Origin: Eledone cirrhosa
Taxonomy: Eukaryota
Reading direction: 5' to 3'
Assembly: GCA_964016885.1 (NCBI GenBank)
Contig: OZ024740.1
Span: forward strand, 65,596,001 to 65,660,000
DNA: 64,000 nucleotides
This document shows positions 32,153-60,238 of this stretch, one piece after another. Below the pieces are notes generated by a model. The model saw only the letters and a list, made by a program, of their open reading frames with translations, did not search any database and was not told where the DNA came from. Both the position numbers and the translations under genes were made by a program. The stretch's first letter is position 1. Each line of letters opens with the position of its first letter.

Positions 32153-34672
32153 AAGGACAGAACCACGTTCATGGTATAAAAGAGGTCGTAGACTATTGTT
32201 CTCTTAAGTGGTTCATAGAGACGTTCTCTGGCAATGAACGAAAAAAACGAAGATAATACGTCATATGTGGTGCACGCAAAGAGAAAACCACGTAAATGGT
32301 ATAGCAGAAGTCGTAGACTAAAATTCTAACTAGGAGACCGAATGAATCTCCCTTTCAGAGTTAAGAATAAAGTAAATAAATACAATACAGAGGTAATAGA
32401 AATTAAATAAATACATACACGCATACAAAGACGTACATACACAAGCATACGCGAAAACACTTATCATAGGTATACAAAACCACGCACATATAAATATGTG
32501 TGTGTGTGTGCGTGTATACAAATAAATAAATAATTAAATAAACGTATATAAATAAATAAATAAATATGTATATAACAAGCGCACACACATACCTACATGT
32601 AAATACACAAATGTTCGGAGACGTAAGTCTACCAAGACATGAAGTACACATATACACACACCCTACATACGTACGAACCTGCATACTCACACAGACACAA
32701 AACTCCCGTATACACATAACCAAACCATATGTACCAGAATATGTAAAAATATACGCCATAACATATTCAATCAAATATAGCTACGAGAAAGTATACGTAC
32801 CTTCACAAAAAATACAGGTAATATATACTTACCTATGCATATAAGTAATGGTATAAACAAAACATATACTTAGCTACCACATCAAGACGTACAATATCCA
32901 CATATAGATCGTACTATCCGTTAGGTTATAACGTGGGGCTGTAATACGGGAAAGTTTTGTGCAATTTATGTTTACAAGCCAAAATTGCCTCAGATTTTTT
33001 GTTTAAGATATGGTCTGTGGCGTAGAGTATATCCAGGGCCTCAGCGGCGCAGAGGTCACATGGTCTTTTATTTCCGTTATACGATCTAGCCCTAGCTAGG
33101 ATCTCCCAGTGTAACTTATATTGGGTGTGGTTGTCTTTAGACTCCAGATATAAGCTGAAAGTGACGTCATATTCCTTCTTAGAGGGTAACGAAAAGAATG
33201 GGTATGCATGTAAAGACGCTGCTTGAATCTTGGCGGTTAACCCTCTGTAGGCCCTACGGGACGTGGGTGTTTCAACCTTACATTTGTAGACAATGTTACT
33301 AGAGAGGCATTTCCCGGACAGGGGGCAATCAACCCGATTCCTACAATTACATGTTTCTACGGCTAGGTAGTTTAGATAAATTTGAAGCTGTGGTGTTATG
33401 TGCAAGGTTAGGGGTCGTAGAGTAAGACATTTTAATAGTATTCCTATTAAAAATGTTACTATATTTATGTGTAGGGGGAAAATGCTTCGTAATAAGGGAA
33501 ACACAGATCTTAGCTAATCGTGTGGCAAGTTCTATATTATATGGTGGGTTATACCAACAAATGCGAGGGGATCTATTTCTTCTAGGCCTATTTCCGTCCT
33601 CTGTATATGCTACCTTATCGACAAATCCACTCCGAGCAAGAGCTTGTTTGTAATAAGTGGAATGGTCGTTGAGAATATGCTCGTTAGTAGATAGACGGGA
33701 AATCCTCAACGAAACGTTTCTTACCAGGTTCTTGGTTATGCTGACAGGATGGTTGGAATGCTTACTTATGTAATTGAGCGTACCATTCGCCTTTCTATAC
33801 GGGTAATACAACCCGTACGTATATTTTATTGTATATGTTATGGCGTATAATTTTATATATTCTGGTACATATGGTTTGGTTATGTGTATACGAGAGTTTT
33901 GCGTCTGTGTGAGTATGCAGGTTCGTACGTATGTAGGGTGTGTGTATATGTGTACTTCATGTCTTGGTTGACTTACGTCTCCGAACATTTGTGTATTTAC
34001 ATGTAGGTATGTGTGTGTGCTTGTTATATACGTATTTATTTATTTATATACGTTTATTTAATTATTTATTTATTTGTATACACGCACACACACACACATA
34101 TTTATATGTGCGTGGTTTTGTATACCTATGGTAAGTGTTTTCGCGTATGCTTGTGTATGTACGTCTTCGTATGCGTGTATGTATTTATTTAATATCTACT
34201 ACCTCTGTATTGTATTTATTTACTTTATTCTTAACTCTGAAGCGGAGATTCATTCGGTCTCCTAGTTAGAATTTTAGTCTACGACTTCTGCTATACCATT
34301 TACGTGGTTTTGTCTTTGCGTGCAATTGTTCTCCACGCTCCACGTATGATGTATTATCTTCGTTTTTTTCGTTCATTGCCAGAGAACGTCTCTATGAACC
34401 ACCTAAGACCTCTTTTATGCCATAACCGTGGTTCTGTCTTTGCGCGTAATTGTTTTTCACCGCTCCTATTAATGACGTATTATATTCGTTTTTTCCCGTT
34501 CTTTGCCAGAGAACGTTTCCACGAACCAAAGTATCGTCTTCCTGTCCTCCTCCGGTTGCAACGATTTTTGAAATATCCACTTCTGCGTTTACAGATTGAC
34601 TTTGTTAGTTTCAGAAGATCCCGTTAAGGGTGAAAGCAGCGATTCTTTCTTTAATCTGTTATTTTAATAAAT
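32153..34672 (-). mobile_element. 5'-truncated Naiad-type Penelope-like element with ~620-bp inverted pLTRs
   Basis: Arms 32153-32779 and 33822-34440 are reverse complements, with the ORF remnant between them. Confidence 0.88.
32926..33820 (-). pseudogene. PLE RT thumb, Cys linker and GIY-YIG endonuclease (frameshifted)
   Basis: YYPYRK..NYISKHSNHP, WYNPPY, FNRNTIKMSYS, CNCRNRVDCPLSGKC, NIVYKC..Y.G and CDLC..E..LNKKSE...CKH. Confidence 0.9.
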
Positions 34673-34750
34673 ATAAATATATATATATATATATATATAT
34701 ATATATATATATATATATATATATATATATATATATATATATATATATAT

Positions 34751-35590
34751 ACTAACCGAATTACCCGCGCCTTCCTGCGTTTCACACATTTTTTATGTAA
34801 GAAAATGCCGATTGATTTTAAATCAGTGATATAATTTACGGAGAAAAACTCAGTATTTCAATAATACTCAATGTAAAATGTAATGCATGAAAAATGTGAA
34901 AACATTATTTTTTGTAATATTTGAATGGCGGTGGAATGGCAGTATCGGTAGAAGGTCGGACGCCATGCTTTCCAGCATAGTTACGTCTCTTTACGATCTG
35001 AGTTCAAATCCCGCCGAGGTTGACTTTGCCTTTCATCCTTACGGGATCGATAAAATAAAGTACCAGTAATGCACTGGATAATTGCTGGCCTTGTGCCTAA
35101 AGTAGAAACAATTATTTTTTGTAAGATATCAAATAAAAATTACATTAGTAAATCGTATTCTTATGTTATTTTTCAAATCTTTTGTGAATAGCCATCATAT
35201 CTTGTCGTTTACCTATTGTTTAAATATCATATAAATCGAGGGCAAAAGTTTTTCAGCGGCGATTGGTGTCCCTGGGGAACCCTAATAGGGAGTTTAACCC
35301 CCATTAGGGTGTCTTAATATTTATGAAAATTGCTAAAAATTTTTGAAAAGGCATCATATCTTGTGATTTAACTATGGTTTAAATTTTAATTTCATATAAA
35401 TAGAAGGGAAAACATTTTCAGCGAAGGTTTGTACCCCCGTGGAACCCATTGATTAAAATGAAATATACTTATTCAAGTACCCTGCGCAATGTAGTTTCAG
35501 AATACATATGGTTATGGGGTCTATCGCCCAAATCATAGGAGTAGTTTGTGAACAAACAGACAGGAATATAACTTTATATATATATATATG
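34751..35590 (-). mobile_element. Probable non-autonomous Helitron
   Basis: The minus strand starts TATATATAAAGTTATATTCCTGTCTGTTTGTTC and ends with a GC-rich hairpin-like segment, ACGCAGGAAGGCGCGGGT, then TTAG-T. It contains a nested SINE. Confidence 0.5.
34927..35114 (+). mobile_element. tRNA-derived SINE
   Basis: Full copy with A and B boxes, flanked by the repeated sequence TTATTTTTTGTAA. Confidence 0.9.
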
Positions 35591-35840
35591 TATATATATA
35601 TATATATTATATATATGTATATATATATATATATATATGTGTATAAATATATAACATATATATAACATATATATATATATATATATATATATATATATAT
35701 ATATATATATATATATATATATATATATATATATATATATTTACATATATATGTATAAATATATATATATATATATATATATATATATATATATATATAT
35801 AAATAATATAATATCAAAAGATGGTTAAAAGCGTTCCATG

Positions 35841-58685: not shown

Positions 58686-59683
58686 TATATATATATATAT
58701 ATATATATATATATATATATATATATATATATATATATATATATATATATATATATATATATATATATATATATATATATATACAATACATAAACAGAGA
58801 AAGCCTTAAGCGATACTCCAACCATCTCCATCTCACTCAACACACATTAGGATATACTTAAGTATTATCCCAATTTAGTGTTTGGAGTGCTAACTAATCA
58901 GTATTTCGTGGATAATTGGTTGTATTATTTTATATGAGACATTATTAAATAAATATCTCATTTCTTCCAGACGGCCGTTTCGTTATAAGATTTTTACAAT
59001 TTCGGATACATAATTTCCAGGCTATGTAGAAACTTGTATATAATCCATAGTTTTATACACAGGCGGGCTCTTATAAACTCATAATATATATATATATATA
59101 TATATATATATATATATATATATATATATATATATATATATATATATATATATATATATATATTTATATATATATATATATATATATATATACATACATA
59201 TGTATAATATATAGATCGCAATTTTTAATGTATAGATAGATAATTTGATTGATAAATTAAACATTTAATCAAATTTAAACATTAGATAAAATTCTCCGGT
59301 TATTATTTATTTATTTATTTATTTATCCACGCTTTATTTACTCACCGTAATTCATCCACTATATATATATTCTTTCGCTTCATCATCTCATACATTACGT
59401 TAATACAACACTCTCTCACTTAGTGTTTTCTCTCTTTCTCTTTCTTTTGTCTTCCTTCTTTGGGTTTGCTCTTTCTTTTTCGTTTTCATTTTCTTTTTCT
59501 TTTTCTTCTTTCCCTATTCCAACGGCTTAATTTAAACGTACTGGGATTTAAACCTCTCCGACACTCATTTGCATAATAGACCAATAATAACATTAGTAAC
59601 CCCACTATCCGAGAGCTTCCAACCGGCACGGTCGCATTTTTTAAGGGTATGTAAATATTTGTTTATAAAACTGATCTATATTA

Positions 59684-59748
59684 TATTTTATCTGATGAAA
59701 GCGCACCATAATTTGCTTTGGTGTCCTTGAAATATGTATAATTAAATA
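59684..59748 (+). ncRNA. Hammerhead ribozyme (sense 3' pLTR)
   Basis: UAUUUUAU-CUGAUGA-AAG CGCACCA..UGGUGU CCUU-GAAA UAUGUA UA/AUUAAAUA. Confidence 0.78.
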
Positions 59749-60238
59749 AATATGGTTTTATAAATATAGTTTCCATTTGTTAATATATTGTATTTTTACT
59801 CCAATAATTGTTGAGTGCTTTATATCAATTATAAAAATATTTGCTTGTTGTATCCCAACCAATTAAATATAACTTCTGCATATATATATATATATATATA
59901 TATATATATATATATATATATATATTAGAAAAAACAGGGAAGTTTCGTTTACATATGGAAAATTATTATTTTGTATCGATGTTACGCGCGTTTCGCAGAG
60001 GATTGGCTAAAAGTGAGCCACAGGATTTATGGACCCGACTCCAGTGTCAATCTGCTCCTCAGACAGTTGATGTGACTAACTATATATTATTTTTGTGGTA
60101 AGTCGACTGGGAATGTATATATTTCGTGTGCCTGGACATGTGTGTATATCCTGGTGTAATTTGTGGGGCGGCAATGCGGTGTATATTCACCGGTATTTAT
60201 GTACGTATTTACGTGGGTGCACGAGCAATTAAGGATTC

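What the first reader, a model, noticed from the sequence alone, without database searches (positions are those of the whole stretch)
32153..59878. Recurrent architecture: inverted pLTR, truncated RT/GIY-YIG, then sense pLTR with a hammerhead
Seen: the elements at 43.5-47.3 and 51.6-59.9 kb have a hammerhead on the ORF strand downstream of the ORF and an inverted copy of the same repeat upstream. The 32.2-34.7 kb element has the same arms with only a hammerhead relic, 35.8-37.6 kb has only the sense hammerhead, and 56.0-57.3 kb has arms with no clear hammerhead. Known: PLEs carry hammerheads in their pLTRs and often have inverted 5' pLTRs. Inference: this consistent geometry produces TIR-like retroelements whose read-through transcripts would be long fold-back dsRNAs that could self-cleave on either strand. 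These are potential substrates for A-to-I editing or small-RNA pathways.
Basis: partly seen in the sequence, partly recalled or inferred. Interest (0 to 1): 0.75.

Follow-up and report, generated by a model that had tools for sequence, protein, structure and literature searches.

The report
Back-to-back Penelope retrotransposon insertions
These mirror-armed stretches are old, broken copies of several Penelope-type jumping genes in a layout already described in print; each likely arises when both ends of one DNA cut copy the element's RNA from two different start points, and whether they are ever made into double-stranded RNA here is untested.

Summary
The arms are real, but they belong to separate Penelope-like (PLE) families: four Hydra-clade, two canonical. 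The 51.6-59.9 kb 'element' is a nest of at least four insertions. The layout (inverted 5'-truncated copy, one-sided tail, (TA)n target) is textbook, and siRNAs from Penelope inverted repeats are published. Among 100 genomic copies, 66 have a head-to-head partner, but only 43 could pair over 100 bp or more. In 109 of 115 scorable insertions exactly one arm starts at the tail end, and arms share private variants. This favours priming at both target ends from two fixed RNA sites. Folding predicts the hammerheads are buried in the duplex, so fold-back and self-cleavage compete. No RNA run was available; copies show no A-to-G excess. Earlier unreviewed notes of this scan report these extras on other DNA.

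The parts
32153..34674 (-). Element D, Hydra-clade PLE: sense arm 32153-32757 (cut short, no hammerhead), RT thumb/CxCX5C linker/GIY-YIG remnant ~32926-33841, inverted arm 33842-34674 starting at the inner (no-tail) site on (TA)n
34612..34650 (+). Family D hammerhead-like motif (variant core, U4A) in the inverted arm; 3' side of stem III and cut site deleted in this copy
35797..37603 (-). Element A, Hydra-clade PLE, 5'-truncated in the linker region, long 3' UTR, no tail; hammerhead core at 35903 with G8 changed
37620..37853 (+). Family P pLTR with tail and an intact minimal type I hammerhead (core 37664), joined head-to-head to A's 5' end through a 15-bp fold-back, with no (TA)n between them
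43492..47440 (-). Element B, Hydra-clade PLE: sense arm 43492-43788 ending at the inner site, broken RT-linker-GIY-YIG 45524-47044, inverted arm 47045-47341 plus tail 47342-47440; (TA)n on both sides
43535..43601 (-). B sense hammerhead, core intact, stem II mutated relative to the family
47232..47298 (+). B mirror hammerhead in the inverted arm, G12 changed
51629..59876 (+). Element C, Hydra-clade PLE: inverted arm 51629-52595, short reiterated filler 52596-52633, broken RT-linker-GIY-YIG from 52634 to ~54720 (split by N), 3' UTR split by E and F at a (TA)n tract, sense arm to 59876; tail on both arms (an exception to the one-tail rule)
59684..59748 (+). C sense hammerhead, core intact; mirror copy at 51758-51822 on the - strand, core intact
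53986..54613 (+). Nested element N: GIY-YIG C-terminus and pLTR of a CCHH-type PLE with a Neptune-like linker, hammerhead core at 54418, no inverted partner, no tail
55980..57333 (-). Nested element E, canonical CCHH-type PLE: sense arm with 41-nt tail, 136-bp GIY-YIG C-terminal remnant 56595-56730, inverted arm without tail; U4C-core hammerhead (56167 mutated, 57177 mirror core intact)
57352..58690 (.). Nested element F: young non-coding 595-nt tandem family (retrozyme-like), two head-to-head arms 99.8% identical, outer ends at the family's two fixed sites; type I hammerhead with U3-A8 core on each arm (58531 +, cut after 58610; 57680 -)

Best explanation
These are decayed insertions of several Penelope-like retrotransposon families, mostly Hydra clade, in (TA)n tracts, each made of two 5'-truncated copies joined head-to-head; the pair likely forms when both strands of the cut target prime reverse transcription on RNA from the same source, one at an inner and one at an outer fixed start site, after which the two cDNA ends would be joined. 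The tail is the sequence between the two start sites, so it sits on one arm only. The 'inverted pLTR' is simply the shorter cDNA. Long fold-back RNA would be a by-product wherever both arms are long and the locus is read through; in such RNA the hammerhead is predicted to be trapped in the duplex.
For: SHOWN. Clade motifs in longer genomic copies match the Hydra definition. Inner ends are followed by (TA)n in nearly all copies printed. Of 100 loci, 20 per family, 66 have a homologous head-to-head partner (hand tally). Exactly one arm carries the tail in 59 of 62 with both ends scorable (p 1.7e-14 against a 50:50 choice). It also holds in 50 of 53 pairs not used to derive the rule: N 9 of 9, P 15 of 16, F 17 of 17, other short loci 9 of 11. 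In about 30 pairs the shorter arm holds tail sequence absent from the longer arm, and 13 are tail-only, so it cannot be a copy-back of the longer cDNA. Same-locus opposite-strand pairs share non-majority variants at 0.22-0.80% of sites against 0.01-0.09% between loci (some pairs in that table are not true partners). PUBLISHED. A purified PLE protein cleaves and extends both target strands, starts at two sites that bound the tail, and does not need hammerhead cleavage (PMC11167929). INFERRED. Simultaneous two-ended priming and the end-joining step.
Against: Six exceptions in 115 (L212, L236, L179, L022, L266, L144); window element C is a seventh, with a tail on both arms. L179, L212 and L144 also duplicate flanking DNA, which points to other inversion routes. 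Eleven of 100 copies sit directly on (TA)n or unrelated flank with no scored partner, and 23 are interrupted or unresolved. Copies were the best-scoring 20-40 of 435-3413 candidates per family, and C and P anchors were forced to carry the tail. Arms overlapping by up to 2 kb need strand displacement or two RNA molecules, which these data cannot separate. Shared variants could also come from gene conversion.
Confidence: 0.8

Rival explanations
1. Self-priming or copy-back: one cDNA (or an antisense RNA template) folds back at its end and copies itself, giving the inverted arm (model of PMC3846280).
For: Palindromic or reiterated fillers at junctions (window C 52596-52633; A/P junction; many P copies). 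Arms share private variants. Three exceptions duplicate flank DNA.
Against: Tail-only and tail-bearing short arms contain sequence missing from the long arm (about 30 pairs). The long arm starts at the inner site about as often as at the outer site. The antisense-template version is not excluded.
Confidence: 0.1
2. The geometry is kept because it makes functional fold-back RNA that self-cleaves on either strand and feeds editing or small-RNA pathways.
For: 43 of 100 copies could pair over 100 bp or more. siRNAs map to Penelope inverted regions in transgenic D. melanogaster (PMC3681739). Family F arms are nearly perfect.
Against: The window's arms differ by 4.3-6.8% substitutions, no less than unrelated copies. 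Several window hammerheads are mutated. Arm-arm duplexes are predicted at -74 to -187 kcal/mol against -6 to -24 for the hammerhead strand alone. No A>G excess on the RNA strand of copies: 4.6 per 1000 A against 7.0 T>C per 1000 T; this tests only edited templates that were reinserted.
Confidence: 0.05
3. The arms are independent insertions that landed in opposite orientation in the same (TA)n tract and were later fused by deletion.
For: All families share the (TA)n target and nest freely. It may explain window C (tail on both arms, 4.9% apart) and the cross-family junctions A/P, L184 and L165.
Against: It predicts no one-tail rule and no shared private variants, and both are seen. Partners are of the same family in 66 of 100 loci against three cross-family junctions.
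Confidence: 0.04
4. The inverted arms are assembly artefacts.
For: No long read spanning this locus was seen; F arms are 99.8% identical.
Against: Arms of B, C, D and E differ by 4-7% plus indels and carry nested insertions on one side only. Outer ends fall on two fixed family sites at over a hundred loci.
Confidence: 0.01

Closest known systems
Hydra clade of C-terminal EN+ Penelope-like elements (Craig et al. 2021, PMC8557442)
   Same: RWK-like and DKT motifs, CxCX5C linker, CxxC and CxH around the conserved E and N, no CCHH, hammerhead in the pLTR, (TA)n target; inverted 5'-truncated copy and one-sided tail as in Fig. 2.
   Different: New families with 3' UTRs of about 0.9-2.1 kb and tails of 83-97 nt (paper: 30-40 bp). 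A short hairpin motif follows both start sites; I did not see it described in the parts read.
EN+ Penelope elements of Adineta vaga and D. virilis (PMC3846280, PMC3681739)
   Same: [quoted passage not shown]
   Different: They have scorable target-site duplications and direct upstream pLTRs more often; here most copies are 5'-truncated within (TA)n. Their self-priming model fits the tail-only arms poorly.
Poseidon of Anolis carolinensis in vitro (PMC11167929)
   Same: Two internal start sites bounding the tail, both target strands cut and extended, uncleaved RNA used as template.
   Different: A different clade; that paper (parts 1-2 of 4 read) does not show inverted products.
Metazoan non-LTR retrozymes (PMC7229834; bioRxiv 10.64898/2026.07.22.740005)
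   Same: Family F: non-coding tandem monomers, each with a type I hammerhead, low GC.
   Different: 595-nt monomer (published 150-450), U3-A8 core, long stem II insert, head-to-head arms with two fixed outer ends; no RNA evidence here.

Membership tests
Hydra-clade PLE (A, B, C, D) | RT followed by C-terminal GIY-YIG with CxCX5C linker | tested here: met
   Window ORF remnants and longer copies; Pfam gave no RT or GIY-YIG hit, so this rests on motif reading
Hydra-clade PLE (A, B, C, D) | RWK motif and DKT in place of DKG | tested here: met
   Seen in D (RWR, DKT) and in C or C-like copies; N-termini of A and B were not recovered
Hydra-clade PLE (A, B, C, D) | CCHH absent; CxxC and CxH flanking E and N of the endonuclease | tested here: met
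Hydra-clade PLE (A, B, C, D) | Hammerhead in pLTR and (TA)n target | tested here: met
   Core plus GAAA in 25, 25, 29 and 27 of 30 copies of A, B, C and D (D has a U4A variant core); flanks
Hydra-clade PLE (A, B, C, D) | Placement in the Hydra clade by RT phylogeny | not tested
   No tree built; reference sequences were only read in the supplement
Canonical CCHH-type PLE (E, N) | RT plus C-terminal GIY-YIG with CCHH and a Cys linker | tested here: met
   E: RVT_1 1.6e-12 and GIY-YIG 0.005; N: Neptune-like CX4CxxC linker; exact clade not resolved
Non-LTR retrozyme (F) | Non-coding tandem monomers each with a type I hammerhead | tested here: met
   595-nt arrays up to ~27 monomers in one arm; hammerhead intact in 65 of 77 monomers; Rfam found no hammerhead in the window
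Non-LTR retrozyme (F) | Expressed as self-cleaving linear and circular RNA | not testable with these tools
   No RNA run listed for the stretch searched (element B; F itself was not searched)
TIR DNA transposon or MITE | Fixed terminal inverted repeats with constant ends and a transposase | tested here: not met
   Arm overlap 0 to ~2 kb, outer ends differ by the tail, RT coding remnants

The most novel reading that the evidence does not exclude
Hydra-clade PLE RNA carries a duplicated short hairpin (RCTC...GAGY) 3-10 nt behind each of two start sites; two reverse transcriptases dock there and each is primed by one end of the cut (TA)n target. The young 595-nt hammerhead family F carries the same twin signal and the same one-end-each geometry, so it is a retrozyme copied, probably from circular RNA, by a Hydra enzyme. 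This would name the helper and the cis signal for an animal retrozyme.
Probability: 0.55. Interest if true: 0.6.

Novelty: new member of a known kind. Interest (0 to 1): 0.35.

Why it matters
The architecture itself is ordinary PLE biology. The counts matter because how PLEs build their inverted ends is an open question (PMC8557442 discussion): the one-tail rule, tail-only arms and shared variants discriminate between models and give a direct in vitro test. Several families with roughly a thousand to a few thousand candidate copies each mean many loci that could form long dsRNA if transcribed, a testable source of siRNA or editing substrate, though nothing here shows it happens.

Tried and rejected
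Rfam scan: no hammerhead family hit, only microsatellite-driven miRNA noise. Pfam: no RT or GIY-YIG hit for any Hydra-type peptide. RNA runs: no RNA holder listed. Contigs of three coded runs of one sample laid on B cover it as a repeat family and show two opposite-strand joints, but cannot vouch for this locus. Idea that inverted arms often come from another family: most candidates proved to be D's own tail; three remain (window A/P, L184, L165), two of them with a tail on both sides, so later fusion is as likely. Idea that arms stop at the hammerhead cut site (raised in note e1-8622537): in F only 2 of about 46 inner ends lie within 5 nt of the cut (hand count); not supported. Idea that the outer polymerase collides with the inner one: arms under 100 nt are about as common for either start (about 11 of 30 against 6 of 24); not supported. 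A-to-G excess or hyperedited copies: none among 252 segments. Hammerhead as an RNA dimerisation signal: palindromic stem III in most families, but Naiad and Chlamys make the same inversions without hammerheads. No host exon recognised among six window ORFs read.
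Full report
Observation. A motif scan and a structure descriptor find hammerheads at 35903, 37664, 43593, 47240, 50464, 51814, 54418 and 59692; variant cores were read by eye at 34612, 56167, 57177, 57680 and 58531. Rfam finds none. The arms of different elements do not match each other: they are separate families, here called A (35.8 kb), B (43.5), C (51.6), D (32.2), E (56.0), N (54.0), P (37.6) and F (57.4). 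C is interrupted by N, E and F.

Identity. The window's ORFs are broken. Longer genomic copies show RT, then a CxCX5C linker, then a GIY-YIG with CxxC and CxH and no CCHH, with RWR and DKT motifs in D and C-like copies. This is the Hydra definition in PMC8557442 (abstract, passages, sections 11-12, supplement passages and part 53 of 59 read). E and N have CCHH-type endonucleases; E hits RVT_1. Candidate counts in the 3.0-Gb genome are 3413 (C), 1833 (B), 2250 (D), 2038 (E), 2406 (A), 435 (P), 1169 (F) and 1001 (N), of which 40 each were scored. These are not copy numbers.

Genomic architecture. I took 10 kb around the 20 best distinct non-self hits of A-E and mapped them on natural reference copies. 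The tally is by hand. 66 of 100 have a homologous inverted piece at the 5' junction (C 12, B 13, D 13, E 13, A 15). 11 have no scored partner. 23 are interrupted by other repeats, cross-family or unresolved. The inverted piece always points the same way (head-to-head) and ranges from about 30 nt to over 2 kb including ORF. 43 pairs overlap by 100 nt or more; 13 overlap by 20 nt or less. About eight loci also hold a direct pLTR-ORF tandem. Each family has two fixed 3' ends, separated by a tail of 83 (C), 97 (B), 88 (D), 88 (A), 41 (E), about 57 (N), 36 (P) or about 167 (F) nt.

One-tail rule. Of the 66, four lack a scorable end and were dropped (L161, L176, L202, L244). Of the other 62, 59 have the tail on exactly one arm (binomial p 1.7e-14). 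In pairs not used to derive the rule it holds in 50 of 53: N 9 of 9 among 29 loci, P 15 of 16 among 29, F 17 of 17 among 27 (this includes the window's F; 8 single-armed and 2 unresolved were dropped), and 9 of 11 among the remaining short A-E loci. C and P anchors were forced to carry the tail. In the window B, E and F obey, C does not, and D cannot be scored. Three exceptions duplicate flanking DNA as well. Opposite-strand pairs within a locus share non-majority variants at 0.22-0.80% of sites against 0.01-0.09% between loci.

Mechanism. PMC11167929 (parts 1-2 of 4 read) shows a PLE protein cutting and extending both target strands, starting at two sites that bound the tail, on uncleaved RNA. 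Combining this with the rule above, the simplest inference is that each target end primes at one site and the two cDNA ends are joined, often with short overlaps or templated filler. Short arms that consist only of tail cannot be copy-backs of the long arm, which argues against the simple form of the self-priming model of PMC3846280 (passages read). All copies retain about 50 nt or more beyond the predicted cut site, so the template was uncut or religated there. Whether one or two RNA molecules are used is open.

Fold-back RNA. Whole-element folds pair almost all of the hammerhead region to the far arm: B 65 of 68, E 68 of 73, F 98 of 98 nt, and 71 of 73 nt for D's hairpin at 32357, which is not the family hammerhead; C was tested only as a duplex. 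Duplex energies are -74 to -187 kcal/mol against -6 to -24 for the hammerhead strand. Minimal PLE hammerheads need dimers and cleave weakly; opposite-strand pairs 100-700 bp apart were already noted in Schistosoma (PMC4209133, passages). siRNAs matching Penelope inverted regions are reported in PMC3681739 (passages). A search for Penelope with A-to-I, ADAR and inverted repeats listed one review on human elements (listing only). Expression and editing could not be examined. Across 252 segments the RNA strand shows A>G 4.6 per 1000 against T>C 7.0 and G>A 19.9 against C>T 14.6; shared ancestry inflates these counts, but the direction is opposite to editing of the template and fits wobble errors during copying (inference).

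Extras. A motif RCTC...GAGY begins within 12 nt behind 7 of the 9 Hydra or F start sites scanned. The two misses (C inner, B inner) came from an anchor mismatch and a copy-specific change, and the motif is visible there in other copies. It is absent at all 4 sites of E and N, and background is 108 of 13927 positions. The motif was defined on A, C and D, so only F and the published sequences are out of sample. By eye it is present in Hydra-1_Ajap (twice), Hydra-2_Ajap and Hydra-1_Amil, in altered form in Hydra-1_Crog, and unclear in Hydra-1_Obim. MFE folds pair the motif at only some sites, so the hairpin is a prediction. F is 98-100% identical between copies, forms arrays of 595-nt monomers and keeps a U3-A8 hammerhead in 65 of 77 monomers. 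It fits non-LTR retrozymes (PMC7229834, passages; bioRxiv 10.64898/2026.07.22.740005, part 1 of 5 and passages; its supplements were not seen). Searches (listings) showed no paper stating two-ended priming or this motif for PLEs, but the library lacks subscription papers such as the 2005-2006 reviews. Unreviewed notes of this scan report twin priming, paired ends and the hairpin on other DNA. I reached these readings; the twin-priming notes were seen, after my stated reading, and the hairpin notes. They are not independent support.

Verdict. The functional dsRNA claim is possible for a minority of copies, has precedent for siRNA, is unlikely for self-cleavage and is untested for editing. Hammerhead numbering and the wobble-error reading are recalled knowledge, not from a call.

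Noticed in passing
window 37604-37853 / 37603: Family P arm with tail is joined head-to-head to tail-less element A of another family; no upstream remainder of A lies in the window. Either priming on two different RNAs or a later fusion.
   Followed up: partly
window 37620; L252-L280: Many family P copies end at the same 5' point with different junction fillers, while 8 of 29 run on upstream; possibly an RNA 5' end or pause site. Weaker pile-ups at B 43788 and C ~59513. Query choice may bias this.
   Followed up: partly
L341-L342 (G000:C1:193982000-194001800): Family F insertion with about 27 monomers (17 kb) in one arm; rolling-circle copying or later expansion.
   Followed up: no
L179, L212, L144: The inverted repeat extends beyond the element into flanking DNA on both sides.
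   Followed up: partly
window 49118-51503: Further nested fold-backs (49118-49161/51460-51503; 49162-49260/49625-49723) with an intact hammerhead at 50464 (+) and a hammerhead-like core at 51221.
   Followed up: no
window 37966-38159 / 38709-38902: Another 194-bp inverted pair (96%) next to a (TA)n tract; family not identified.
   Followed up: no
window 63646-63999 and 12666-12762: Additional family D ends.
   Followed up: no
window 19185-28711: Two decayed LINE-like copies (weak endonuclease and zf-RVT hits), about 75% identical to each other.
   Followed up: no
window 5844-6105 / 6365-6626: 262-bp direct repeat, 98.9% identical.
   Followed up: no
families D, E, F: Family-wide variant hammerhead cores: U4A (D), U4C (E), U3-A8 (F); activity untested.
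   Followed up: partly
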